The notes beneath the pieces are model-generated. The model searched no databases and was not told the origin of the DNA. It saw only the letters and a program-made list of their open reading frames with translations. A program made the translations under genes and the position numbers. A DNA stretch of 64,000 nt from Alphaproteobacteria bacterium (GTDB lineage Bacteria; Pseudomonadota; Alphaproteobacteria; RF32; CAG-239): NCBI GenBank assembly GCA_028706255.1, contig JAQWBS010000001.1:23617-87616 (forward strand), written 5' to 3'. Of the stretch, positions 3,079 to 51,568 are shown one piece after another (position 1 is the first letter of the stretch; each line of letters starts with the position of its first letter).

Positions 3079-3157
3079 TTTCAACTCCTTTCTCTAAAAA
3101 AACTTCTATAAGTTTTAAACAAAATTCATCAATTAGCAAGCTCTTAGTTTTAAACCC

Positions 3158-3186
3158 AAAAAAGCGAACCGATTTCTCGATTCGCT
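3158..3186 (-). terminator. Rho-independent terminator of gene 3204-3902 (AGCGAA CCGATTTCTCGAT TCGCT plus U-run on the minus strand)
   Basis: A hairpin is immediately followed by A6 on the plus strand, which is U6 on the minus strand. Its core CGAACCGATTTCTCGATTCG is identical to the rplQ terminator at 3978-4008. Confidence 0.55.
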
Positions 3187-3203
3187 TTGAAGATAATTAA
3201 CAG

Positions 3204-3902: not shown

Positions 3903-3977
3903 ATAATTTTATTTTAATAATACATAAATCATAGTAAATGAGATGGCAAATTATCACACTTAACAAAACCTGTCTAC

Positions 3978-4008
3978 ACAAAAAAACGAACCGATTTCTC
4001 GATTCGTT
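3978..4008 (-). terminator. Rho-independent terminator ending the alpha operon after rplQ
   Basis: AACGAA CCGATTTCTCGAT TCGTT hairpin followed by U7 on the minus strand. It is a near-identical copy of the hairpin at 3158-3186. Confidence 0.6.
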
Positions 4009-4034
4009 TCTTTTATATAAAATGTTCTAAAGAA

Positions 4035-4472
4035 CTATTCTGCTTTTGCAGCTTCCGCAGCAGCAACTTTTTCAGCAGCAACTCTAGCCAAGTCTTCAGC
4101 ACCTTTGGCAGCAACATCTCTGTCAACCAATTCAATGATTGCCATATCAGCAGCATCGCCATATCTAAAACCAGCTTTAAGAACACGAGTATAACCACCG
4201 TTACGGTCTTTATATCTTTCACCTAATGTAGAGAAAAGCTTAGACACAACTTCTTTATTACGAAGAAATGAATTTGCTCTTCTGCGACTTGCGAGGTCAC
4301 CTTTTTTTGCCAAAGTGATCATATTGTCAGCGAAAGTTCTGAGTTCTTTTGCTCTTTGCAAAGTAATTTTAATTTGTTCATGGTTCAACAAAGCAGCTGT
4401 CAAGTTTGAGAACAATGCTCTTCTTTGGCTTGTTGTCATGCTGAATTTTCTATGTTTCATTCCGTGTCTCAT
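4035..4472 (-). CDS. rplQ: 50S ribosomal protein L17
   Basis: [10 protein letters not shown]...[27 protein letters not shown] matches L17, with an Ala-rich C-terminal tail. The ATG at 4472 has an AAGGA Shine-Dalgarno sequence. Confidence 0.9.
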
Positions 4473-4612
4473 CATTTTTTCCTTTTCTCTAATGCTTTGC
4501 ATGCAAAGCGGATAATACAGACCGATACTACCCTAAAACACAAAGATATATATCGGCAAATTAAAGGTTAAATACAAAATTTAAATCTAACCTAATTTCT
4601 TAAAATTTTAAT

Positions 4613-4696
4613 AGAGGGCTATGCTACAAAGATATTTTTGAGTGAGGTGTAGAAAAACTACACGAAAGAAAAAAATATCAAGTATGATAACCCTCT
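4613..4696 (-). repeat. Copy A of an ~85-nt imperfect-palindromic intergenic element (rpoA|rplQ spacer)
   Basis: It shares the core ...TTTTTGAgtGAgGTGTAG-aaaaa-CTACACGAaaGAAAAAAA..AAGTATGAtAaCC with copies at 9421-9506 and 21788-21875. The outer stem is AGAGGG/CCCTCT. It begins 9 nt after the rpoA stop. Confidence 0.6.
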
Positions 4697-4705
4697 TGTA
4701 AAATT

Positions 4706-5713
4706 CTAGAAGTGTTCGTCAACGCGACGAATCAAATCTTCAATATTTTCAGGTGGCCAACCAACAACTTCCATGCCGAGGTGGATACCCATTTTTGTAA
4801 GAACTTCTTTGATTTCATTCAAAGATTTTCTACCAAAGTTTGGTGTTCTGAGCATTTCTGCTTCTGTTTTTTGAACCAAATCACCAATATAAACAATGTT
4901 ATCATTCTTCAAGCAATTTGCAGAACGAACAGAAAGTTCAAGCTCTTCAACTTTTTTAAGAAGATTTCTGTTAAATGGAAGTTCTTCTTTTTCTGCTTTT
5001 GTTTCAACTTCAGGTTCATCAAAGTTAATGAAAGGCTTAAGTTGATCTTGCAAAATTCTTGCTGAATATGCAATCGCATCTTCAGGCGTGATAACACCAT
5101 TTGTTTCAATTACGAGTGTGAGTTTGTCATAGTCAGTCACTTGACCAACACGAGTATTCTCAACTTTGTAAGAAACTTTTTTAACTGGAGAATAAATTGC
5201 ATCAACTGCAATCACCCCAATTGGTGCATCAGCGGCTTTGTTTTGATATGCAGGAACATAGCCTTTTCCGGTTCCGACAGTAAATTCAACATTAATTTTT
5301 GCGCCAGCGTCCAATGTGCAAATGAAATGATTAGGATTTTTGATTTCAACATCATGTCCTGTTTGAATCATTGCAGCGGTAACTTCGCATGGACCTTCTG
5401 CTTTAAGGCTCATTGTTTTTGTGCCTTCGCCTTCAACGGCAACAGCCAAACCTTTAATGTTTAAAATAATGTCTGTAACATCTTCTTTAACACCTGGGAT
5501 TACAGTGAACTCATGCAAAACACCGTCAATTTTGACAGCTGTTACAGCGCCACCTTGCAAAGAAGAAAGTAAAACTCTTCTCAATGCATTACCCAAAGTT
5601 AGACCAAAACCTCTCTCAAGAGGCTCGACTACTATTTTAGCTCTGCTTGCACTTTCGTTAACAACGTCTAAATTAGTAGGTTTAATAAGTTCTTGCCAAT
5701 TCTTTTGAATCAC
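4706..5713 (-). CDS. rpoA: DNA-directed RNA polymerase subunit alpha
   Basis: Full-length alpha subunit with NTD and CTD ([20 protein letters not shown]), in its alpha-operon position. Confidence 0.95.
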
Positions 5714-8922: not shown

Positions 8923-9381
8923 TTAAGCTTGGATAAGATTAACCTTACCACCTGCTTTTTCAATTGCAGCAACAGCTGCTTTTGAAGCAGAATTTACAGA
9001 AATTGTAATGCCAGTTGTGATTGCGCCTCTAGCAAGCAATCTCACACCGTCATATTCTTTGCTGATAATTCCTGACGCCAACAAAGCTTCAATATCAACA
9101 GCTGAAGCAGTCAATTTACCTGCATCAACAGCTTTTTGAAGGGTGTCAAGATTAACCACTGCAAATTCTTTAGCAAAGTAGTTTTTAAATCCACGCTTAG
9201 GAAGTCTACGATAAATCGGCATTTGTCCGCCTTCAAAACCGTTGATAGCAACACCTGAACGTGATTTTTGACCTTTATAACCACGACCACCAGTTTTGCC
9301 TTTACCACTACCGATTCCACGACCAACGCGAATGCGATTCTTTGTAGCTCCTTGGTTATCTTTTAATTCATTAAGTTTCAT
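8923..9381 (-). CDS. rplO: 50S ribosomal protein L15
   Basis: [38 protein letters not shown] matches L15. The ATG at 9381 has an AGGTGA Shine-Dalgarno sequence. The track start at 9390 is GTG. Confidence 0.9.
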
Positions 9382-9420
9382 TTTATTCACCTAATACAAA
9401 CATTTAATCAATGGGTTAGA

Positions 9421-9506
9421 TAAAGTGGCGTGCTACGAAGCAAATTTTTGACGACGTGTATTCTTAACTACACGAGGAAAAAATTTACAAGTATGACACC
9501 ACTTTA
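9421..9506 (-). repeat. Copy B of the ~85-nt imperfect-palindromic element (rpmD|rplO spacer)
   Basis: TAAAGTGGcgtgCTACGaagcaaaTTTTTGACGAcGTGTAttcttaacTACACGAGGAAAAAAtTTacAAGTATGACACCACTTTA. The perfect 8-bp closing stem is TAAAGTGG/CCACTTTA. It ends 14 nt after the rpmD stop. Confidence 0.65.
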
Positions 9507-9520
9507 GCAAATCCCCCAAA

Positions 9521-9706
9521 TTATTCTTCGATACGAACGAGGTGAGATACCTTTTGTACCATACCTCTGATTGAAGGAGTATCCTCAAGAACAGAAACTC
9601 TACCCATCTTGTTAAGACCAAGACCGATAAGAACTGCTCTTTGCTCTTTTGGACGACCAATTGGACTTCCAACTTGAACTAATTTAATAGTTTTTTTCGC
9701 AGCCAT
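9521..9706 (-). CDS. rpmD: 50S ribosomal protein L30
   Basis: [31 protein letters not shown] matches L30. Confidence 0.9.
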
Positions 9707-19140: not shown

Positions 19141-19935
19141 TTAAGGGGTTTTATGGCATTTTACCATACTCGGCATTTGCTGTCTCTTGAAAAACATTTT
19201 GCGGTATGTCTTCTCTATCAAACCGACGACGCTATTACTATGACCTCTTGCAACAATTTCTTTCACAGACAAGTTTTTATCGATTAACAACATCAAGATT
19301 TCATCTAACACGTCATATACTGGTAAACTATCTTCATCTTTTTGCCCCGCTTTTAGCTCTGCACTTGGTGCTCTTGAGATAACCGCTTCTGGCAAAACAC
19401 TTGCATAATGCCCATTAAGCCATTTAGCAAGAGCAAAAATTTGCGTTTTATACAAATCACCAATTGGCATTAACCCTCCGCAAGTGTCGCCATATAGCGT
19501 ACAATAACCCATAGCTGCTTCAGACTTATTGCCACATGCCAAAACCAAATAGCCAAACTGATTTGAAAGTGCCATCAAAATCTGTCCGCGAATTCTTGAT
19601 TGAACATTTTGCATCACCAAGTCTTTCGGGGTTTCTGCAAAAACCTGAGCGAATTTACGTTCATAATACTCAACCTCTGGCTGAATATCAATTACTTGAT
19701 AGTGGATTTTATTCCGCTTTGCAATTTCTTGAGCAATCTGCAAACTCAACATTGAAGTATATTTTGTTTTCATCATATAAGCATAAACATTATCTGCACC
19801 CAAAGCTTCTTTAGCAATAATTGAACAGACTGCAGAATCAAGCCCACCTGAGAGCCCTAAACAAACTTGCTTAAACCCATTTTGCTCACAATAATCCCTC
19901 ATTCCAACAACAAGTGCCTTCCAAATTTTTTCCAT
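19141..19935 (-). CDS. nadE: NH3-dependent NAD+ synthetase, single-domain form
   Basis: PP-loop LGLSGGLDSAV, size ~264 aa, no glutaminase domain. Starting at MEKIWKAL avoids an 88-nt overlap with nadM. Confidence 0.9.
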   Translation of the reverse strand: MEKIWKALVVGMRDYCEQNGFKQVCLGLSGGLDSAVCSIIAKEALGADNVYAYMMKTKYTSMLSLQIAQEIAKRNKIHYQVIDIQPEVEYYERKFAQVFAETPKDLVMQNVQSRIRGQILMALSNQFGYLVLACGNKSEAAMGYCTLYGDTCGGLMPIGDLYKTQIFALAKWLNGHYASVLPEAVISRAPSAELKAGQKDEDSLPVYDVLDEILMLLIDKNLSVKEIVARGHSNSVVGLIEKTYRKMFFKRQQMPSMVKCHKTP

Positions 19936-19951
19936 CTCATTTCTCCCAACC

Positions 19952-20494
19952 TTAAATAACCGCTTTTTTATTGAAGAAGCTCTCTTCAATAAGTTTATAA
20001 TTTTCAGGATTAATAAAGTTCTTCCATCGAACATCGCCAAATTTTATCATATCCCTCACCATTGTTCCGGTGACAAAGGGAAAATCTTGTGCCGTTCTAT
20101 CAATGAGTTCTATTTGCGTAAAAGCATGTCTAAACCAGTGTGCATCATAATTACTCCCTGCATAATAAACATCTGGCTTTGGCAAATCTGGAAAGCTTTC
20201 CAACATAAAATCCATTACATATTCCGCCCATTCTGCTGGATTATTAATATCAAACAATCCGATAATCTTCAGACGAGGATAATCAGGTGAATGACGATAG
20301 AGATTTTGAATCATTTTTTTTCGTGTGGTATAGTTAAGCGGATTACGCTCTGTGCCATGTTCTTGAATTGAACCAAGAACAATTGTCACTAATTCACACT
20401 CTTTTAACATCTTTTCAACAATGCGATGATGCCCAATGTGAAAAGGTTGAGCACGCATAATGGATAACCCATGTTTATATTTAAAATCAGACAT
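19952..20494 (-). CDS. nadM: Nicotinamide/nicotinate mononucleotide adenylyltransferase, archaeal NadM-type
   Basis: GLSIMRAQPFHIGHHRIVEKM carries the (H/T)xGH nucleotidyltransferase motif in a NadM-like N-terminus, at about 180 aa. The ATG at 20494 has a GGGAG Shine-Dalgarno sequence 7 nt upstream. Confidence 0.75.
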   Translation of the reverse strand: MSDFKYKHGLSIMRAQPFHIGHHRIVEKMLKECELVTIVLGSIQEHGTERNPLNYTTRKKMIQNLYRHSPDYPRLKIIGLFDINNPAEWAEYVMDFMLESFPDLPKPDVYYAGSNYDAHWFRHAFTQIELIDRTAQDFPFVTGTMVRDMIKFGDVRWKNFINPENYKLIEESFFNKKAVI

Positions 20495-20646
20495 AAAAAA
20501 ACTCCCATAAAATAGGAGCACAATTTGAGATGAGAAATCTATTCTCATATATCAATCAACATCAAACCGGCTCAGTTATATAAGTTCTTCACCCATTAGC
20601 CCTTCGGATGACGAGAACATGTTCAGTTTGATAGATTATCATCCCT

Positions 20647-21733: not shown

Positions 21734-21763
21734 AAAAAAAGAGCTCTTCAAAAGAAGGGCTCT
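21734..21763 (-). terminator. Rho-independent terminator of the str operon downstream of tuf
   Basis: AGAGCTCTTC-aaaa-GAAGgGCTCT hairpin followed by U7 on the minus strand. Confidence 0.6.
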
Positions 21764-21787
21764 TTCCTTTAACTAATTAAAGTTATA

Positions 21788-21875
21788 TAAATTGTGTGGG
21801 CTACGCCTTAAGTTTTTGACGAAGTGTACACAGAAAGTACACGAGGAAAAAACTTAAAAGTATGACACCAATTTA
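21788..21875 (-). repeat. Copy C of the ~85-nt imperfect-palindromic element, abutting the tuf stop codon
   Basis: TAAATTGtGTGggCTACGccttaagTTTTTGACGAaGTGTACacagaaaGTACACGAGGAAAAAAcTTaaAAGTATGACACCAATTTA. The closing stem is TAAATTG(t)GTG/CACCAATTTA. It ends 2 nt from the tuf stop. Confidence 0.65.
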
Positions 21876-21877
21876 GA

Positions 21878-23068
21878 TTACTTTAGAATCTTAGATACCA
21901 CACCGGCACCCACAGTTCTACCACCTTCACGGATTGCAAAACGAAGACCTTCGTCCATAGCAATTGGGTGAATGAGGTTTACTGTAATTGTTACGTTGTC
22001 TCCAGGCATTACCATTTCTGTTCCTGCTGGAAGTTCAATCGCTCCTGTTACGTCTGTTGTTCTGAAATAGAACTGTGGACGATAGTTACCGAAGAATGGC
22101 GTATGACGTCCACCTTCATCTTTGTTCAAGATATAGCATTCGCCATTGAAGCTTGTGTGTGGTGTGATTGAACCAGGAGCCGCTAATACTTGTCCACGTT
22201 CAACATCTTCTCTCTTCGTTCCACGAAGCAATACACCTACGTTATCACCTGCTTGACCACTATCCAACAATTTACGGAACATTTCAACGCCTGTACATGT
22301 TGTCTTAGCTGTTGGTTTAATGCCCACGATTTCCATTTCGTCACCAACTTTAATAACACCACGTTCTACACGACCTGTTACCACTGTTCCACGGCCTGAA
22401 ATTGAAAATACGTCTTCAATTGGCATCAAGAATGGTTTGTCAACTGCTCTTTCTGGTTGTGGAATATAAGCATCTACTGCATCCATCAAAGCAATAATTG
22501 CTTTCTTACCGATTTCTTCGTTGCTGTCTTCCAATGCTGCCAAAGCTGAACCTTTTACAATCGGAATTTCATCGCCAGGGAATTCGTATGAACTTAACAA
22601 ATCTCTGATTTCCATTTCAACGAGTTCCAACAATTCTTCATCATCAACTTGGTCTACTTTGTTCATAAATACTACCAAAGCTGGTACGCCTACTTGACGT
22701 GCCAACAAAATGTGTTCACGTGTTTGTGGCATTGGACCATCTGCTGATGATACCACCAAAATTGCACCATCCATTTGTGCCGCACCTGTAATCATATTCT
22801 TTACATAGTCAGCGTGGCCTGGGCAGTCTACGTGTGCATAGTGACGAGCCTTTGTTTCATATTCTACGTGTGACGTTGAAATCGTGATACCACGTGCTCT
22901 TTCTTCTGGTGCTTTATCAATATTTGCATAGTCTACAAATGCACCGCCGCCTTGTTCCGCCATAATCTTTGTAATTGCCGCTGTCAATGTCGTCTTACCA
23001 TGATCAACGTGACCAATCGTGCCAATGTTACAGTGCGGTTTATTACGCTCAAATTTCTCTTTTGCCAT
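21878..23068 (-). CDS. tuf: Elongation factor Tu
   Basis: [28 protein letters not shown] is the canonical EF-Tu N-terminus. Confidence 0.97.
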
Positions 23069-45277: not shown

Positions 45278-48200
45278 CTAAAAATTATATCTAATCGTCA
45301 AATAAAGTTGATCATCGGAATACCCTGAACGGCTATCTCTTGCATAACCAAAGTTTAACGCAAAAGGTGTATAAATGTTATTAATTTTCAAATTCATCTT
45401 ACCACGAATACTATCTCGACTATCTGGTGTTCCACTCACCGCCCATGGGCTTTCAGGACTTCCAACAAAATATGAATTAACACTCACATTTCTATCTCCA
45501 ACATTTCGTGCATATGCTAATTCAATGGCAGGCGAGAGAATAAAAGTATCAAAGACCATATTTTGAGAAAGTCTTAACCCAATTGGAAGCTCAACTGTAT
45601 TATAACTTGTTTTCTCAAAGTGACGGGCCCCGACACCTTTTTCATCATAAGCCTCAGTAAACATATAAGAATAATCAACACCGACAAAAGGCTCAATAAC
45701 ATAACGACTATTTCCCAAATCATAACCAAACTCAACATTTGAGAACAACACGCCTATATCATACTCTCCTCGGGCATTGAGACTGCTTGTTGTTAATTTC
45801 GTTTTATTGAGAATAATACCTCCACCAACGCTTCCCGTTGTATAAAGTCTTTTTGGTTTATATTTCCAATAACCTGACAATAAATATTCATCAACATCAG
45901 AGTGGCTATAAACATCACTTGCTCCTGTCCCTTCCACTTCTCCAAAAGCATAGCTAAAGGCAAGTCCTAAGGTTAAGGCATTTGGAATAATGTCATGATC
46001 ATATCCCCAAGCCAAGCTTGTTGGACGATATTCATAACCTAAACTATCCCAACGTCCTTTTTTCTCAACCCAATTTTTGCCGACATTAAACCATAAATGT
46101 TGGTCAGAAAAACCATTTAACATCCCACAACTCTGGCAATCTTTATTCTGAATGCGGGAATATATCTGACGATTAAATTGTCTAATCGTTGCTTTATGAA
46201 GCTCTTGATAAGATTTCGTATCCTCACCACCAACTGTTGCCAACTCTGATTTATATGCACTACTAACAGCCCCTGTATAATAAATATTTTCATAAACATC
46301 CCTATCTTTTTGGCTCAAATCATCACGTTTACGATAAATATCTGCAAAAGAAGACAACCCCTCATACCCTTCCAAATCTTTAACTTCAATTGAGGTTACA
46401 CCACCTTGACTTTCAACTTTAAGCAAATTATTTTCAAATCCTTCAAATTTACTATAATCCACATTGTATATATGTTGTTCTTCACCCGTTAAAGAAGAAA
46501 CATTATAAGGACGAAGCAAGGAAACGCCATTCACTGTTATGTCATTCCCAATATTCGCAATTTGACCATTTGTCACTTTTGGTTTAAAAACAGTTCCACC
46601 ATTAAAACTGATTGTTGCATTGCTTAAATCAAAAGAAAGTCTCTGTCCCAGAGGATCGTTCAAAACATCTTGCTTATTGTCAAACATGGCATAGAACGTT
46701 CCCTCTTCAATGTTTAATTCTCCACCGTATGCACTATTATCTCCCCAAAGAGATAAAGTTCCCTCTCCTATCTTATTAATTTCTCCATAAGCGCCAAAAG
46801 ACCCATCATCATTTCCACTTCTTAATGGATCCCAAATATTGATTGAAGATTGAGCGATTGAATTCAGGTTAACAACTCCCCCATTCCCCAAAAAGATTGA
46901 TTCCAATTTCTTCTCTTCTTGTGCAGTATCAGCATTCGTGATGATATAATTATTTGCAATGAAAATATTCTTCTTAGATTCTGTTGTTGCAATCGTGACA
47001 GCACCAGAATATGCATTATAAATCGCACCTCCTAAAGCAACATCATTGGCAGATTTTGCATAATTTCCAACAATATCCCCTGATAAGATGATTATACCAC
47101 CAAATGCGTTATAAATCGCTCCACCATAAGCACCTGTTTCCCCAAAAACATAATTTTGTACAAAATCTCCAGAAAGAGATGAGAATTGAGAACCACCTAT
47201 ATTATAGATTCCTCCGCCGGATGACGTAGCCATGATGGATTTTGCATAATTTTCAGTAACATCTCCAGATAAAGTAATTATACTACCAGATGCATTATAA
47301 ATCGCTCCACCATAAACACTTGTTTGACCCCAAACATAATTACGCACGAAATCCCCAGAAAGGGATGAGAATTGAGAACCAGATGCATTATAGACTGCTC
47401 CGCCATACGACGTAGCAGTAGCAGATTTTGCATAATTTTCTACCATATTTCCAGATATAGTTATTATACCGCTATTATCATTATAAATTGCCCCTCCACT
47501 AGCATCTGTCTGAGCAGAAGCATAGTTTCTATAAAAATAGCCTACATTATTCATTCTAGATGAAGAAGTGACGTAAATCGCCCCACCCCTCGCCCAATCA
47601 GAACTTGAAAAAGCATAATTTTCAATAAAACTACTTTCTAAACTATTCAAAATAGATGTATTCTCAGCATAAATTGCCCCTCCAGAAGCTTGTTCATAAG
47701 CAAAAACATAATTACCCTTGAAATCTCCAGAAAGGGAATCAATTTTCCCAGCATCCACATAGATTGCCCCACCCTGCGCATTATCTGAGCTTGAAATGGC
47801 ATAATTTTCAAAAAAAGCTCCATTCAGCTGAGTAATTCTCGTACTATTATACATTCCAATTGCCCCACCAGCAACCTCTTCAACTCCAGAAACATAATTT
47901 TGAATAAAATTGCTTTTAACGCTATCTAAAAGCGTGCCGTTCCCAAGAACTTGAATAGCCCCTGAATAAGCACTATCGGAAGAAGATGTCGCAGAGTTTC
48001 CAATAAAATCTCCCTCAATCTCAGAAATAGTTGAGTCATAACCTTGAAAGATTGCCCCACCATATGCTTTTCCATAAGCTTCCACATTATTTTTTATAAA
48101 ATTTCCTTTAATAGATTTAATTTTTCCATATTGATTATAAATCGCCCCGCCTTGACCAACACCAGAGAAAGAAATTGCGGAATTTCCAATAAAATCGCCG

Positions 48201-49072
48201 CTAAGATCCATAATATTATATGCTTCAAGTCCTAAATGGTTATTATAAATTGCGCCACCAAGAGCATTACTAGATGCCTTTACATAGTTTCCGATAAAAC
48301 TTCCTTGAATATCTCCAAAATAACTATAAGTACCAAACAAAGCTCCTCCGAGAGCCTCACTTGATGTTGAAACAACATAATTTCCAATAAAATCACCTGT
48401 TATTGACCCAAGATTATGATTTGCATAACCACTGTAAATTGCACCACCCCTCCCTGAATTAACACCATCTACGTAATTTCCGATAAAATTTCCAGTAATA
48501 CTCTCAATCTTATGTCCTCCGGTTGCAATGTTATTCGAAACATAAATTGCACCACCAAACCCAGATACATGATTACCTATAAAATCTCCAATAATATTAC
48601 CTATTTCCGTTACTGATGTAGAAGGATAACCAACAAAAATAGCACCCCCATCTTCATCATAATTTCCTAAAAAATCAGAAGTAATATTACCAACATCACC
48701 ACCGAGAGTGTTTGTAATGGCTCTTCCACCGGCATAACTTTCAGAGGTATAAGCCTCAACAAAATGACCATCAACGGAATTTACATTTCCCGCACTATTA
48801 GTAATTGGAGCTTGACTAACCACGTCAGGCTTAATTGAGACTGTATATTTATAGAATTTTTTTTGGTATTCCCCATTTGAATCTTTTTCAAAAGTGGAGA
48901 AATCTGCATTACTTTCATCTGTTGCTTCATAGATTAAAACATAGGCACTCTCAGCACTTAGGTGATCTAATGTGGGGGTATAGGTGCTGAAATCAACAAC
49001 AGCATAGGCTCTTGATGAAGACACAAAAGCTATGAGAGGGAGGAGGAGGAGAAATCTAAACTTACTGTTCAT
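45278..49072 (-). CDS. Pmp-like (polymorphic-membrane-protein-type) autotransporter, 1264 aa
   Basis: The signal peptide is MNSKFRFLLLLPLIAFVSSSRAYA. The passenger has about 18 GGA[IV] and about 15 F/V-x-x-N-[YH] motifs in 25-30-aa repeats. The C-terminal ~290 aa form a beta-barrel domain ending ...LYLTIRYNF (terminal aromatic). The start is the ATG at 49072. Confidence 0.85.
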   Translation of the reverse strand: MNSKFRFLLLLPLIAFVSSSRAYAVVDFSTYTPTLDHLSAESAYVLIYEATDESNADFSTFEKDSNGEYQKKFYKYTVSIKPDVVSQAPITNSAGNVNSVDGHFVEAYTSESYAGGRAITNTLGGDVGNITSDFLGNYDEDGGAIFVGYPSTSVTEIGNIIGDFIGNHVSGFGGAIYVSNNIATGGHKIESITGNFIGNYVDGVNSGRGGAIYSGYANHNLGSITGDFIGNYVVSTSSEALGGALFGTYSYFGDIQGSFIGNYVKASSNALGGAIYNNHLGLEAYNIMDLSGDFIGNSAISFSGVGQGGAIYNQYGKIKSIKGNFIKNNVEAYGKAYGGAIFQGYDSTISEIEGDFIGNSATSSSDSAYSGAIQVLGNGTLLDSVKSNFIQNYVSGVEEVAGGAIGMYNSTRITQLNGAFFENYAISSSDNAQGGAIYVDAGKIDSLSGDFKGNYVFAYEQASGGAIYAENTSILNSLESSFIENYAFSSSDWARGGAIYVTSSSRMNNVGYFYRNYASAQTDASGGAIYNDNSGIITISGNMVENYAKSATATSYGGAVYNASGSQFSSLSGDFVRNYVWGQTSVYGGAIYNASGSIITLSGDVTENYAKSIMATSSGGGIYNIGGSQFSSLSGDFVQNYVFGETGAYGGAIYNAFGGIIILSGDIVGNYAKSANDVALGGAIYNAYSGAVTIATTESKKNIFIANNYIITNADTAQEEKKLESIFLGNGGVVNLNSIAQSSINIWDPLRSGNDDGSFGAYGEINKIGEGTLSLWGDNSAYGGELNIEEGTFYAMFDNKQDVLNDPLGQRLSFDLSNATISFNGGTVFKPKVTNGQIANIGNDITVNGVSLLRPYNVSSLTGEEQHIYNVDYSKFEGFENNLLKVESQGGVTSIEVKDLEGYEGLSSFADIYRKRDDLSQKDRDVYENIYYTGAVSSAYKSELATVGGEDTKSYQELHKATIRQFNRQIYSRIQNKDCQSCGMLNGFSDQHLWFNVGKNWVEKKGRWDSLGYEYRPTSLAWGYDHDIIPNALTLGLAFSYAFGEVEGTGASDVYSHSDVDEYLLSGYWKYKPKRLYTTGSVGGGIILNKTKLTTSSLNARGEYDIGVLFSNVEFGYDLGNSRYVIEPFVGVDYSYMFTEAYDEKGVGARHFEKTSYNTVELPIGLRLSQNMVFDTFILSPAIELAYARNVGDRNVSVNSYFVGSPESPWAVSGTPDSRDSIRGKMNLKINNIYTPFALNFGYARDSRSGYSDDQLYLTIRYNF
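47008..48673 (-). repeat. Coding repeat region of the autotransporter passenger (GDFIGNY...GGAIY units)
   Basis: A regular alternation of FxxN and GGAI motifs is seen in the translation. The coordinates are approximate. Confidence 0.6.
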
Positions 49073-49188
49073 AAGACAACATCCTGTATTAATAATTTGA
49101 AAGAATATAACATTATTATCACATAAATTTAATAAATATTCAATTAATAATCTTTCTCTCTCCACTAAGAATGTATAATATAGTATAC

Positions 49189-49234: not shown

Positions 49235-50410
49235 TTAAGCTAATCTAACTGTTTCCATAGCAATTACTAATTCTTCATCTGTCGGAATGACAAAGGCACG
49301 AACTTTCGACCCTACTTTTGAAATTTCATTCACGAATCCACGTTGTGAATTTTTCTCATTGTCAATTTCAATACCAAGATAAGCCAATTTTTCTAAAACG
49401 AGTTTACGAACAAGTGAAGAATTTTCACCAACCCCTGCCGTGAACACGAGTGCATCCAGCCCACCCATTGCTGCTGTGTATGAGCCGATATATTTAACGA
49501 TATTATAAATATAAACTTGCATTGCCTTAACCACTTTTTCTTCGCCACGTTCATAAGCTGCTTCAAAATCTCTGGAATCACTATATCCAGTTAAACCAGA
49601 TTTACCACTTTGCTTATTCATCAAGTCGTTAATTTCATCAGCAGAATAGCCTTCCATTTTCATCAAATAAACTGGAATATATGGATCAATATCACCACAA
49701 CGAGTGTCCATTACAATACCAGCAAGAGGGGTCATGCCCATTGAGGTATCAACACATTGACCATCTTTAACCGCTGTAATTGAAGCCCCGCTTCCGATAT
49801 GACAAGTGATAACTTTGCTCTTTTCACCAACAAGTTTACAAGCTTGTTGAGAAACATACATATGAGAAGTTCCGTGGAAGCCATAACGACGAATTTGATG
49901 TTTTTCAATCAATTCTTCTGGTAAAGCATAAGTATAAGCTTCATAAGGCATTGTTTGGTGGAAGGAAGTGTCAAAAACCAAAACTTGGCGAATTTGTGGC
50001 AAAACTTCCTTAACCGCACGAATTACAAGGGCTGCCGGACCATTATGTAAAGGGGCGAGAACAGCTAAGTCTTCAACTTTTTTAATATTTTCTTCTGTTG
50101 CCAAAGCTGAAGATTTGAAATATGCTCCACCTTGCACAATTCTTTGACCAATTGCGGAAATCTCGTCCAAATTTCCAATAATTCCATCAAGAAGAATTTT
50201 CAAAATTGCTTCCAAAGCATCTTTATGAGACTTTAATTCCACTGAAACATCTTTGCTGTTGCCATTGAACTTAACACTTACAAAAGAAGCATCACGATTA
50301 ATACGTTCCGCATTTCCCTTTGCAACAACATTATATTTTTCACCCTCAACTTGAAAAAGTTGATATTTCAACGTAGATGAACCAGAGTTCAGAACAAGAA
50401 TTTTTTTCAT
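49235..50410 (-). CDS. ackA: Acetate kinase
   Basis: MKKILVLNSGSSTLKYQLF is the acetate/propionate kinase N-terminus. Confidence 0.95.
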   Translation of the reverse strand: MKKILVLNSGSSTLKYQLFQVEGEKYNVVAKGNAERINRDASFVSVKFNGNSKDVSVELKSHKDALEAILKILLDGIIGNLDEISAIGQRIVQGGAYFKSSALATEENIKKVEDLAVLAPLHNGPAALVIRAVKEVLPQIRQVLVFDTSFHQTMPYEAYTYALPEELIEKHQIRRYGFHGTSHMYVSQQACKLVGEKSKVITCHIGSGASITAVKDGQCVDTSMGMTPLAGIVMDTRCGDIDPYIPVYLMKMEGYSADEINDLMNKQSGKSGLTGYSDSRDFEAAYERGEEKVVKAMQVYIYNIVKYIGSYTAAMGGLDALVFTAGVGENSSLVRKLVLEKLAYLGIEIDNEKNSQRGFVNEISKVGSKVRAFVIPTDEELVIAMETVRLA

Positions 50411-50563
50411 TTTTATATTTTTCCTATTTTTTATTTTTTTACTATCTAACGAGATAAACAACCAAATAACTTATTATGTGAGAAGAGAACGAAGAGCGTT
50501 TTGAACGACGCTTACAATTAGCTAAGCGAGAAAAAACGCTCAAGTTATATTCCACAGAATGAG

Positions 50564-51568
50564 TTATTTTACGGCTTGAAGAGCAGTAATCGCAATAACC
50601 CCCACAATGTCTTCTGCAAAAGCACCACGTGACAAGTCGTTGATTGGTGCGTTTAAACCTTGAAGCATTGGACCATAAGCTTCGCAATTACCTAAACGTT
50701 GCAAAAGTTTGTAACCAATATTTCCGGCATTTAAGTCTGGGAAAATGAGCGTATTTGCACGTCCGCCAACTTTGCTTTGTGGAGCTTTCTTGGTTGCAAC
50801 AACAACATCCAAAGCTGTGTCTGCCTGCATTTCACCATCAAGCAAAATATTTTTGCTTTTAAATTCGTCTGCTTCTAGCATTTCTTTAGCAATTTTAGCT
50901 GCTTCACGCACTTTATCAACCCCTTCCCCAACACCTGAGCCGAAAGAAGAATATGAAAGCATTGCAATTCTTGGATCAATGCCAAATTGCATCACACTTT
51001 CTGCCGTTGAAATGGCGATGTCAGCCAGTTCTTGTGAAGTTGGATTAATATTAATTGCACAATCAGAGAAGAAATATTGCTTTCCACCTGAAATCATAAT
51101 CAAGAAAGAAGAAACTGTTCTGCCTTTTTTTGCAGATTTAATAATTTGTAAAGCAGGACGAACGGTGTCAGCTGTTGAGTGATTCGCACCACTGACCATT
51201 CCGTCAGCATCGCCAGCTTTCACCATCAATGTTCCGAAATAGTTATATTTCAAAGCTGTTTGCTTGGCTTGTTCTTCAGTCATACCTTTCTCTTTACGAA
51301 GGTCATAAAGTAACTTTGTATATTCTTCCAACTTTTCGGATTCTTCAGGCTTAATAATGGTAATTCCATCTAGATTCCAATTATTATCATCAAAATAGTG
51401 CTTAATTTCTTTATAATCACCTAAAACAATAATTTTAGCTGCTTTTTCCTTATTAATAATGTTTGCTGCACGCAAAACACGGGGATCTTCTCCCTCAGGA
51501 AGAACAATGGTTTTATAGTGAGGTCTGGCTTTATCAACCAACCCCTTCAAATATTGACTTTCAATCAT
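50564..51568 (-). CDS. pta: Phosphate acetyltransferase (short, PTA_PTB-domain-only form)
   Basis: 334-aa Pta-type sequence (VSGANHSTADTVRPALQII) upstream of ackA. Confidence 0.9.
   Translation of the reverse strand: MIESQYLKGLVDKARPHYKTIVLPEGEDPRVLRAANIINKEKAAKIIVLGDYKEIKHYFDDNNWNLDGITIIKPEESEKLEEYTKLLYDLRKEKGMTEEQAKQTALKYNYFGTLMVKAGDADGMVSGANHSTADTVRPALQIIKSAKKGRTVSSFLIMISGGKQYFFSDCAININPTSQELADIAISTAESVMQFGIDPRIAMLSYSSFGSGVGEGVDKVREAAKIAKEMLEADEFKSKNILLDGEMQADTALDVVVATKKAPQSKVGGRANTLIFPDLNAGNIGYKLLQRLGNCEAYGPMLQGLNAPINDLSRGAFAEDIVGVIAITALQAVK

What the first reader, a model, noticed from the sequence alone, without database searches (positions are those of the whole stretch)
21788..21875. 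Copy C of the palindromic element abuts the tuf stop codon, upstream of the str-operon terminator
The element ends 2 nt from the tuf TAA stop. The genuine terminator lies about 100 nt further on (21734-21763). So the element sits in the 3'UTR of the most abundant mRNA of the cell. That is consistent with a stabiliser or 3'-end-protection role, or with opportunistic insertion into a highly transcribed locus.
Basis: seen in the sequence. Interest (0 to 1): 0.6.

Follow-up and report, generated by a model that had tools for sequence, protein, structure and literature searches.

The report
Mobile hairpin repeat after tuf stop
The palindrome right after the tuf stop codon is real, and it is one copy of a previously undescribed ~110-base hairpin repeat that spreads in uncultured gut Alphaproteobacteria, lodges at the ends of genes and always points the same way relative to DNA replication, so it looks like a REP-like mobile element rather than a dedicated tuf regulator.

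Summary
Pairing extends to 21778-21885, so the TAA stop sits inside the outermost helix.

The window holds four copies, all on the minus strand:
- A, between rpoA and rplQ
- B, between rpmD and rplO
- C, 3' of tuf
- D, between pta and ackA

A metagenome scan gave 120 loci (63 distinct sites) from human-gut and rumen Alphaproteobacteria. The consensus is a five-helix hairpin with strong covariation: 92% of cells paired, and 27 of 32 pairs with compensatory changes. It has conserved asymmetric loops and no Rfam match.

- **Position:** in 46 of 63 sites an upstream sense ORF ends within -11 to +9 nt of the element, and a terminator often follows.
- **Mobility:** near-identical copies at unrelated sites, tandem arrays and presence/absence at orthologous sites.
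- **Orientation:** it tracks the G-rich (leading-type) strand at 45 of 45 sites.
- **Pairing type:** G-U pairs are no commoner than A-C mismatches, which points to a single-stranded-DNA constraint rather than an RNA one.
- **Outgroup:** tuf and rpsJ lie 15 nt apart with no element.

An mRNA-stabilising effect is possible but untested.

The parts
21778..21889 (-). Copy C of the hairpin repeat. The full covariance-model hit is given here.
   Evidence: R2 scores 91.7 bits, E 5e-23, against only 13.9 bits on the opposite strand. The fold is -30.6 kcal/mol with z -5.1.
21878..23068 (-). tuf (EF-Tu). The TAA stop at 21878-21880 lies inside the outermost helix P1 of copy C.
   Evidence: Pfam GTP_EFTU, D2 and D3; translation; P1 pairing AAAGTAA with ATAACTTT.
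21734..21763 (-). Intrinsic terminator of the rpsL-rpsG-fusA-tuf unit: a GC-rich hairpin followed by a run of seven U.
   Evidence: Read from the sequence and predicted as a hairpin. The simple scan did not call it because of one stem mismatch.
9411..9520 (-). Copy B, in the spacer between rpmD (9521-9706) and rplO (8923-9381).
   Evidence: R2 100.3 bits; Pfam L30 and L15 for the flanking genes; fold -38.9 kcal/mol with z -5.7.
4602..4711 (-). Copy A, in the spacer between rpoA (4706-5713) and rplQ (4035-4502).
   Evidence: R2 94.8 bits; sequence; the orthologous copy in MAG VLC_001 is L001.
50464..50573 (-). Copy D (diverged), between pta (50564-51568) and ackA (49235-50461).
   Evidence: R2 43.6 bits, E 2e-9; sequence; Pfam PTA_PTB and Acetate_kinase for the flanking genes.

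Best explanation
Copy C is one member of a ~110-nt, five-helix imperfect-palindrome repeat family. The family is confined to a subclade of uncultured gut and rumen Alphaproteobacteria.

Shown:
- The family is dispersed and duplicative.
- Its hairpin structure is strongly maintained.
- It is asymmetric, with conserved unpaired motifs UCAURC...CGYAGCA and CGCUCG...CGUCGCUC.
- Its 5' edge hugs the downstream boundary of ORFs.
- Its 'sense' strand is always the G-rich, leading-type strand.

Inferred: the hairpin is read as single-stranded DNA on the lagging-strand template by a strand-specific enzyme. The working model is a HUH/Y1 (RAYT or IS200/IS605-like) nuclease. This enzyme copies or moves the element, which survives only where it does no harm, namely just after an ORF. 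Most such ORFs are on the leading strand, so the element is co-transcribed in sense.

At tuf it became the first ~110 nt of the 3'UTR, ahead of the terminator. This happened when the ancestral tuf-rpsJ junction was broken in this lineage.

Inferred by analogy only: the resulting RNA hairpin, abutting the stop codon, may slow 3'-to-5' decay or affect termination. That would be a side effect, not the reason the element exists.
For: **Family and structure**
- There are four copies in the window.
Several contigs come from one sample at the same coverage.
- The covariance model found 136 sense hits in those loci, and all 145 hits collapse to 63 distinct sites.
- On 58 copies, 92.2% of cells are paired against 70.0% in shuffles. 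The covariation score is 0.576 against 0.164, reached by 0 of 500 shuffles. Sliding the partners gives 31-51% paired.

**Mobility**
- One subfamily (AAAATCCAAATAAAACGCTG...) is near-identical at three unrelated sites. Two of them are on one contig. At the glmM site the ORF reads into the element and uses the element's own TAA.
- Tandem arrays of two or three copies occur.
- L002 (95% S3 identity) has only a 3-nt rpmD-rplO spacer and no copy there, but has a copy after rplO. L003 and L005 (91%) do have the rpmD-rplO copy.

**Orientation**
- The element-sense strand has positive GC skew at 45 of 45 non-redundant sites with at least 4 kb of sequence (for the window copies, the surrounding ~12 kb). 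This includes the convergent and antisense contexts.
- The skew stays positive on that strand even inside opposite-strand genes: 0.079 overall, and positive in 25 of 26 loci. Those genes hold 36% of the coding bases.
- G-U pairs (61) are about as frequent as A-C mismatches (49). The antisense fold is more stable in 41 of 58 copies.

**ORF-edge position**
- In 46 of 63 sites a sense ORF stops -11 to +9 nt from helix P1.

**Lineage-specific origin at tuf**
- Outgroup genomes have tuf and rpsJ 15 nt apart, and no family member in the whole r-protein cluster.

**Literature**
- IS200/IS605 Y1 transposases act on the lagging-strand template (PMC6006769).
- REPs lie mostly downstream of ORFs and often overlap or supply the stop codon (PMC3733652).
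Against: - No mobilising enzyme was found. tblastn with an IS200 TnpA sequence recalled from memory found nothing in the 1.0 Mb in hand, and the only recurrent neighbouring genes are r-protein genes. Both are weak tests.
- No fixed target tetranucleotide and no target-site duplication was seen.
- Copies within one genome are only 53-67% identical. The tuf and rpmD copies persist across species with structure intact. This includes a compensated TAA-to-TAG change of the tuf stop inside P1. That suggests selection on each copy rather than pure parasitism.
- The upstream genes are enriched for translation and central metabolism: tuf, rpoA, rpmD, rplO, rplJ, rplI, HU, pyk, pnp and pta. Such genes are mostly on the leading strand, so part of the skew correlation could be indirect.
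- GC skew is only a proxy for replication direction on short contigs.
Confidence: 0.55

Rival explanations
1. The element is a selected cis-acting RNA element of 3'UTRs and intercistronic spacers. The transcribed hairpin, starting at the stop codon, blocks 3'-to-5' exonucleases. Alternatively it is an RNase III or RNase E processing site, or it stalls terminating ribosomes. In each case it tunes the output of the upstream, often highly expressed, gene. Its spread by duplication would be secondary.
For: - It always lies inside the transcript, between the stop codon and the terminator or the next cistron.
- It is in sense to an abutting upstream ORF in 46 of 63 sites.
- It is retained at the tuf 3' end in at least three lineages and at rpmD-rplO in about 16 species-level clusters, with compensatory changes. 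One of these is TAA to TAG in the tuf stop, matched in the 3' arm.
- The upstream genes are enriched for translation and central metabolism.
- In E. coli, REPs stabilise upstream mRNA. [quoted passage not shown] 2015, as summarised in PMC12306157).
Against: - There is no wobble signature: G-U 61 against A-C 49 in 1849 pair cells. The antisense strand folds better on average.
- None of the 45 sites has the element's sense strand on the C-rich strand, although 36% of the coding bases lie there.
- Six sites have no upstream sense gene (L031, L032, L046, L049, L075, L113), yet they keep the same strand orientation.
- Outgroup genomes express tuf without the element.
Confidence: 0.25
2. The element has a host DNA-level function tied to replication or chromosome structure. 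Examples would be an orientation-specific single-strand hairpin used for priming or restart on the lagging-strand template, or a BIME-like binding site for gyrase, IHF or HU at the ends of transcription units.
For: - The orientation correlates perfectly with the G-rich strand.
- The unpaired motifs are conserved and the pairing statistics are symmetric with respect to strand.
- Many copies carry a conserved 3' motif TATCAA, which resembles the core of the IHF consensus (WATCAA, from memory).
Against: - Copy number looks too low and distribution too irregular for a chromosome-wide role. There are four copies in 64 kb here but few extra copies in about 0.8 Mb of flanks.
- Presence and absence vary between close relatives.
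- The IHF-like match fails the spacing of the full consensus.
- A DNA-level role does not explain why the 5' edge abuts ORF ends.
Confidence: 0.1
3. The element is a dedicated autoregulatory binding site for a ribosomal protein or translation factor in the str, spc and alpha operons.
For: Three of the four window copies lie in the r-protein cluster. Further sites follow rplO, rplJ and rplI.
Against: - The same element follows pyk, pnp, glmM, era, galE, fabZ, pta, a hydrogenase gene, and dsbA-like and aldo-keto-reductase genes.
- It matches no Rfam r-protein leader.
- It is absent from the whole r-protein cluster of outgroup genomes and from the rpmD-rplO spacer of L002.
Confidence: 0.02

Closest known systems
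REP / BIME / REPIN elements with their RAYT (TnpA-REP) nuclease (E. coli, Pseudomonas, Stenotrophomonas)
   Same: - Both are extragenic imperfect palindromes that lie mostly downstream of ORFs, between unidirectional or convergent genes.
- Both often overlap or supply the stop codon and are transcribed into 3'UTRs (PMC3733652).
- Both form tandem clusters and show structure-preserving variation.
- Both are proposed to be handled as single-stranded hairpins by a HUH/Y1 enzyme (PMC6006769, PMC8266576).
   Different: - This element is a single ~110-nt hairpin of five helices, not a 20-40-nt unit or a doublet of such units.
- It has no GT[AG]G tetranucleotide at the 5' foot. The conserved CGYAGCA sits inside the 3' arm.
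- Copy number looks low.
- Orientation is strict relative to the replication strand.
- 73% of sites are within about 10 nt of a stop codon, against 11-52% within 15 nt for E. coli REPs (PMC12306157).
- No RAYT gene has been linked to it.
IS200/IS605-family single-strand transposons and their ORF-less derivatives
   Same: Orientation is coupled to the lagging-strand template (PMC6006769). Recognition depends on imperfect hairpins with conserved unpaired bases rather than on terminal inverted repeats.
   Different: Those elements have separate left-end and right-end hairpins and insert 3' of a fixed tetra- or pentanucleotide. Here there is one long hairpin and no fixed flanking motif. No Y1 transposase was detected in 1.0 Mb (a weak test).
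Transcribed miniature repeats that alter mRNA fate (Neisseria Correia/NEMIS, Yersinia ERIC, Bacillus bcr1)
   Same: These are hairpin-forming repeats of about 100-150 nt, inserted next to coding sequences and co-transcribed. They can stabilise or destabilise mRNA through RNase III or RNase E (background section of PMC3733652).
   Different: Those elements have conserved terminal inverted repeats and target duplications, and they occur in both orientations. Here the termini (helix P1) covary between copies, no duplication was seen, and the orientation is fixed.
Integron attC sites
   Same: Both are imperfect palindromes of similar length that lie immediately 3' of an ORF and are oriented with it. 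In both, structure is conserved but sequence is not, and asymmetric unpaired bases set strand choice in a single-stranded DNA reaction.
   Different: The element has no R''/R' boxes (RYYYAAC...GTTRRRY), no cassette array and no integrase context. The copies sit inside core operons (str, spc, alpha, pta-ackA).

Membership tests
REP / REPIN-RAYT system | A 20-40-nt imperfect palindrome, or an inverted doublet of such units | tested here: not met
   The element is a single ~105-110-nt hairpin with five helices. Neither half is itself palindromic.
REP / REPIN-RAYT system | A GT[AG]G (or CGTC) tetranucleotide 0-2 nt from the foot of the hairpin (PMC6006769, PMC3733652) | tested here: not met
   The conserved CGYAGCA lies between helices P3 and P2 in the 3' arm, and CGTC follows the apical helix. 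The foot (P1) has no conserved tag.
REP / REPIN-RAYT system | Extragenic position, predominantly downstream of ORFs, and often overlapping the stop codon | tested here: met
   In 46 of 63 sites a sense ORF stops -11 to +9 nt from P1. There are 24 unidirectional and 19 convergent contexts against 3 divergent ones.
REP / REPIN-RAYT system | A cognate RAYT gene flanked by the repeats (REPtron) | not testable with these tools
   No whole genome of the clade could be read. The limited checks were negative.
REP / REPIN-RAYT system | High copy number (hundreds per genome) | tested here: inconclusive
   There are four copies in 64 kb and at least five contigs per sample with the strict pattern. Only 2-3 extra non-adjacent copies appear in about 0.8 Mb of flanks.
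MITE | Conserved terminal inverted repeats plus a direct target-site duplication | tested here: not met
   The terminal helix P1 covaries between copies: all 6 of its pairs show changes on both sides. The three near-identical copies show no direct duplication at their junctions.
MITE | Near-identical copies at unrelated loci | tested here: met
   L115 and L121 (same contig) and L118/L089 (the glmM 3' end) carry the same subfamily in different flanks.
IS200/IS605-type single-strand elements | Orientation bias that places one strand on the lagging-strand template | tested here: met
   The element-sense strand is G-rich at 45 of 45 sites. This also holds inside opposite-strand genes. GC skew is used as a proxy for replication direction.
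IS200/IS605-type single-strand elements | Insertion 3' of a fixed tetra- or pentanucleotide, and separate left-end and right-end hairpins | tested here: not met
   The 5' flanks end in TAA, TAG or TGA followed by a variable number of G, and no fixed motif is present. There is only one hairpin.
Integron attC | R'' RYYYAAC and R' GTTRRRY boxes, and arrays next to intI | tested here: not met
   The ends read ...TTTGCAAAAG and CTTTATCAA.... The copies lie in core operons.
Any Rfam 15 family | Score at or above the family's gathering threshold | tested here: not met
   The whole window gave 0 matches. The only sub-threshold matches are terminator- and hairpin-driven noise.
Intrinsic terminator | A GC-rich hairpin followed directly by a U tract | tested here: not met
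   No U tract follows the element. The real terminator is the separate hairpin at 21734-21763.

The most novel reading that the evidence does not exclude
The family could be a new type of strand-specific, single-stranded-DNA hairpin element that homes to the downstream edge of ORFs (stop-codon-proximal insertion). It would be driven by an enzyme not yet linked to it. It may also have been co-opted as a standard 3'-end module of highly expressed genes in a whole clade of gut Alphaproteobacteria. If so, it would join replication-coupled mobility to translation-termination or mRNA-end biology.
Probability: 0.15. Interest if true: 0.65.

Novelty: new member of a known kind. Interest (0 to 1): 0.4.

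Why it matters
- **Annotation:** the palindrome after tuf should be annotated as a repeat-family copy, not as a tuf-specific regulator.
- **A usable model:** there is now a covariance model and a clear signature for an undescribed structured repeat in abundant but uncultured human-gut and rumen Alphaproteobacteria.
- **An unusual combination of features:** perfect replication-strand polarity, a 5' edge that hugs ORF ends, and deep structural covariation.
- **A testable question:** if a cognate nuclease is found, this would be a compact system for asking how REP-like elements choose their sites.
- **A natural experiment:** stop-codon-abutting hairpins on very highly expressed mRNAs (tuf, rpoA, r-protein operons) can be compared with outgroup genomes that lack them.

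Tried and rejected
- **Rfam.** The whole window at gathering thresholds, and copies B and C at E up to 10, gave nothing relevant.
- **Mini-ORF on the + strand.** Copies B and C carry GAGGA-N13-ATG ACA CCA xTT TAG. It is not conserved in the 58-copy alignment, and the ATG is the conserved TCAT loop read antisense. Rejected.
- **r-protein leader.** Rejected because of the non-ribosomal contexts.
- **Kink-turn or loop-E reading of the large internal loop.** On the antisense strand it can be drawn as tandem G.A pairs. This explains why the antisense fold is more stable, but there is no evidence that this strand is transcribed. Left open.
- **G-U versus A-C counts as a strand test.** 61 against 49, which is uninformative for RNA and is counted as evidence against RNA-level selection.
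- **Vertical inheritance of the rpmD-rplO copy.** The rpmD copies are barely more alike than copies from different sites (0.64 against 0.61 identity; the nearest neighbour is another rpmD copy in 9 of 16). Inconclusive.
- **Search for a mobilising gene.** All-against-all clustering of 2879 ORFs from the loci found only r-proteins and one Cys-rich secreted family as recurrent neighbours. tblastn with IS200 TnpA found nothing.
- **Plasmid, phage and viral-contig searches.** No match.
- **Exact-protein look-up of tuf.** Not on record.
- **Simple terminator scan.** It missed the tuf terminator because of one stem mismatch.

Full report
**1. Observation**

The r-protein cluster lies on the minus strand of the window. 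The genes relevant here are:
- rpsL-rpsG-fusA-tuf, with tuf at 21878-23068
- rpsJ through rpmD (9521-9706) and rplO (8923-9381)
- secY, adk, rpsM, rpsK, rpoA (4706-5713) and rplQ (4035-4502)

These come from the ORF lists and the Pfam results.

The tuf TAA stop is at 21878-21880. Immediately 3' of it is an imperfect palindrome. One search reports perfectly complementary arms at 21808-21817 and 21848-21857. It also reports an outer pair at 21778-21794 and 21869-21885 with 88% complementarity. The stretch folds far better than shuffled controls, at -30.6 kcal/mol with z = -5.1.

Pairing nevertheless runs on across the stop codon, so the last tuf codons and the TAA form the 5' arm of the outermost helix.

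A GC-rich hairpin followed by seven U occupies 21734-21763 on the minus strand. The simple scan missed it because its stem has one mismatch.

**2. It is a repeat family**

A 32-nt degenerate core matches twice in the window, against 0.00 expected. Reading the rpoA-rplQ spacer revealed a third copy.

A covariance model built from 58 copies (R2) was run with filters off. It finds exactly four copies, all on the minus strand:

| Copy | Coordinates | Score (bits) | Position |
|---|---|---|---|
| B | 9411-9520 | 100 | rpmD-rplO |
| A | 4602-4711 | 95 | rpoA-rplQ |
| C | 21778-21889 | 92 | tuf 3' |
| D | 50464-50573 | 44 | pta-ackA |

The opposite strand of the same sites scores only 14-23 bits. The element is therefore asymmetric and its orientation is well defined.

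Rfam 15 has no matching family. Plasmid, phage and viral-contig collections hold nothing similar.

**3. Host and distribution**

The S3 protein of the window is identical to one from a 'MAG: Alphaproteobacteria bacterium' on a 488,686-bp contig. Relatives include 'Acetobacter sp. CAG:977' at 78% identity.

The loci come from human-gut and rumen assemblies, and several contigs come from one sample at the same coverage. Model R1 found 136 sense-strand copies in them, including tandem pairs and triplets. By shared flanks, all copies collapse to 63 distinct sites.

**4. Structure**

The 58-copy alignment (A3) gives a five-helix hairpin:
- P1: 5-7 bp
- P2: 9 bp
- P3: 3 bp
- P4: 9 bp, with a T run facing an A run
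- P5: 5 bp

The unpaired motifs are conserved. UCA faces GCA. UU faces nnC. A large pyrimidine-rich internal loop has CGCUCG facing CGUCGCUC.

The covariation figures are:
- 27 of 32 pairs show compensatory changes.
- 92.2% of cells are paired, against 70.0% in shuffles.
- The covariation score is 0.576 against 0.164, reached by 0 of 500 shuffles.
- Sliding the 3' partners by 1-3 columns gives 31-51% paired.

P5 and the two loop motifs were fixed by my search pattern, so their invariance means nothing. P1, P2 and P4 were not constrained by the pattern.

**5. Genomic context**

In 46 of 63 sites, a sense-strand ORF of at least 55 codons ends -11 to +9 nt from P1. The mirror-image situation occurs in 9 sites, nearly all involving tiny and doubtful ORFs.

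The upstream genes are:
- rpmD, in about 16 species-level clusters
- tuf (window, and L066/L107)
- rpoA, rplO, rplJ, rplI and HU
- pyruvate kinase, PNPase, an [FeFe] hydrogenase, Era and Pta, all confirmed by Pfam
- GlmM, FabZ, GalE and an aldo-keto reductase, identified by eye from the translations
- a DsbA-like protein and a DUF3015 protein, both confirmed by Pfam

Many copies are followed 15-40 nt later by an intrinsic terminator. Others sit between cistrons.

**6. Mobility**

- One subfamily is near-identical at three unrelated sites. Two of them are on one contig. At glmM the ORF runs into the element and uses the element's own TAA.
- Tandem arrays exist. L124 has three units of about 104 nt. 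After an HU gene, two different subfamilies lie side by side.
- Orthologous sites differ between relatives. L002 (95% S3 identity) has a 3-nt rpmD-rplO spacer but carries a copy after rplO. L003 and L005 (91%) have the rpmD-rplO copy. L007 and L008 have an unrelated GC-rich hairpin there.
- Two copies from one sample (L012 and L031) are identical except that both arms of P4 are replaced, with complementarity kept. The tuf copies of the window and of L066 share P1 and P2 but differ throughout P3-P5.

This last pattern looks like segment replacement, by gene conversion or templated repair, rather than stepwise point compensation.

**7. The tuf site in relatives**

- L066/L107 carry an orthologous copy. 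There the stop codon is TAG, and the 3' arm has the matching change, so AAAGTAG pairs with CTACTTT.
- L003/L004 carry a diverged member at the same place, scoring 27 bits.
- L002 has a syntenic copy followed by a terminator.
- In three outgroup genomes (77-78% S3 identity), tuf and rpsJ are 15 nt apart with no element and no terminator. No family member scores above 18 bits anywhere in their r-protein clusters.

The tuf copy therefore arose within this lineage. The same lineage also has NAD-metabolism genes inserted between tuf and rpsJ.

**8. Which strand matters?**

Two tests argue against a purely RNA-level constraint.

Test one is the type of non-Watson-Crick pair. G-U pairs (61) are about as frequent as A-C mismatches (49) among 1849 pair cells. 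The antisense RNA fold is on average 2.9 kcal/mol more stable, and it is the more stable strand in 41 of 58 copies.

Test two is orientation relative to GC skew:
- The element's sense strand has positive GC skew at all 45 non-redundant sites with at least 4 kb of sequence (for the window copies, the surrounding ~12 kb). These include 12 convergent contexts and 6 contexts with no upstream sense gene.
- The skew on that strand stays positive inside genes of the opposite strand: 0.079 overall, and positive in 25 of 26 loci. Those genes hold 36% of the coding bases.
- The window itself has negative + strand skew throughout, even across its + strand gene blocks.

If orientation followed only the gene strand, about a third of copies should sit on the other strand. 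None does. By my arithmetic, 0.64^30 is about 1.5e-6 after collapsing the rpmD sites to one.

It is established knowledge that the G-rich strand is the leading strand in most bacteria. The parental strand with that sequence is the lagging-strand template, which is transiently single-stranded. This is the polarity documented for IS200/IS605 Y1 transposases (PMC6006769).

**9. Interpretation**

The best-supported reading (confidence 0.55) is a REP-like, non-autonomous hairpin element. It is handled as single-stranded DNA in a replication-strand-specific way, and it persists at the downstream edge of ORFs. As a result it is co-transcribed in sense. At tuf it is a lineage-specific passenger that became the start of the 3'UTR.

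A real effect on the mRNA remains possible (rival, 0.25). It could act as an exonuclease barrier, an RNase III or RNase E site, or a stall for terminating ribosomes. [quoted passage not shown] 2015, as summarised in PMC12306157). The long retention of structure at individual sites also favours some selection. None of this is shown here.

A host DNA-level role (0.1) and an r-protein autoregulatory site (0.02) are less likely.

Three things remain unexplained. It is not clear why the 5' edge hugs ORF boundaries so tightly. In two antisense contexts (L046, L075) it abuts the start of an opposite-strand gene, which is also unexplained. And no enzyme has been identified.

**10. Comparison and novelty**

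The family shares position, transcription and behaviour with REP/BIME/REPIN elements. It fails their defining anatomy: unit size and the GT[AG]G foot tag. It also fails the MITE criteria of conserved terminal repeats and target duplication. It lacks the attC boxes, and it has no fixed IS200/IS605-type target.

I file it as a new member of the broad, well-known kind 'structured intergenic palindromic repeats'. Its polarity and ORF-edge rule are unusually clean. Interest is 0.4.

Noticed in passing
L002:19921-20130; L003:2396-2500; downstream flank of L067:146-244: A second hairpin-repeat family has the ends TTTCTAATACAGAAA...TTTCTTATTAT. It occupies the rpoA-rplQ spacer of L002 and the tuf 3' region of L003. 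The L003 copy keeps the TCAT / GTAC..GTACAC / GTCGCAG motifs of the main family and scores 27 bits. About 200 nt downstream of it there is an 'empty-site-like' repeat of its flank.
   Followed up: partly
L007:15235-15342; L008:9478-9584; L129-L131 rpmD-rplO spacers: Genomes that lack the element at rpmD-rplO carry unrelated GC-rich hairpins in the same ~100-nt spacer. This spacer therefore collects hairpins of several kinds.
   Followed up: no
L012:2307-2404 versus L031:9805-9902 (same sample, ~137x coverage): These two copies are identical except that both arms of helix P4 are replaced (TGTTGTTTTT/AAAAACAACG against CGTATATATT/AATATATAC) with complementarity kept. This looks like segment replacement rather than point compensation.
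   Followed up: partly
L124:573-877; L025:10576-10783; L030:1740-1946; L015:18-216: The element forms tandem arrays of two or three copies in direct orientation, 6-12 nt apart. In L025 the two neighbours belong to different subfamilies.
   Followed up: partly
window 21876-21889 versus L129:6480-6520, L130 and L131: EF-Tu ends ...SKILK in the element-bearing lineage (window, L066, L003) but ...KI(V/I)E in outgroups, where tuf abuts rpsJ. The last two codons may have been remodelled when the junction was broken.
   Followed up: no
window 21862-21889, + strand: There is a promoter-like match, ATGACA-16 nt-TAGAAT (10 of 12). Its -35-like hexamer is the element's conserved TGTCAT loop read antisense, and it points into the 3' end of tuf.
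   Followed up: no
window 45278-49165, minus strand: A 1295-aa ORF is built from diverged tandem repeats of 186 nt (62 aa).
   Followed up: no
window 3154-3187 and 3976-4009: Two terminator-like hairpins are 91% identical (ACxCAAAAAAxCGAACCGATTTCTCGATTCGxTT). One lies just downstream of rplQ and the other after the next gene.
   Followed up: no
window 19141-20548: NAD synthase and a cytidylyltransferase-like (NMNAT-type) gene, plus several small ORFs, lie between tuf and rpsJ. The outgroup genomes have nothing there.
   Followed up: partly
L011:2957-3767; L015:2473-3475; L019:8696-9527: A Cys-rich secreted protein family recurs in loci from nine different site clusters. It is not a transposase, and its relation to the element is unknown and may be coincidental.
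   Followed up: no
window 1-64000: GC skew on the + strand is negative along the whole window, including the blocks of + strand genes. The window therefore probably lies within a single replichore, with the minus strand as the leading strand.
   Followed up: yes
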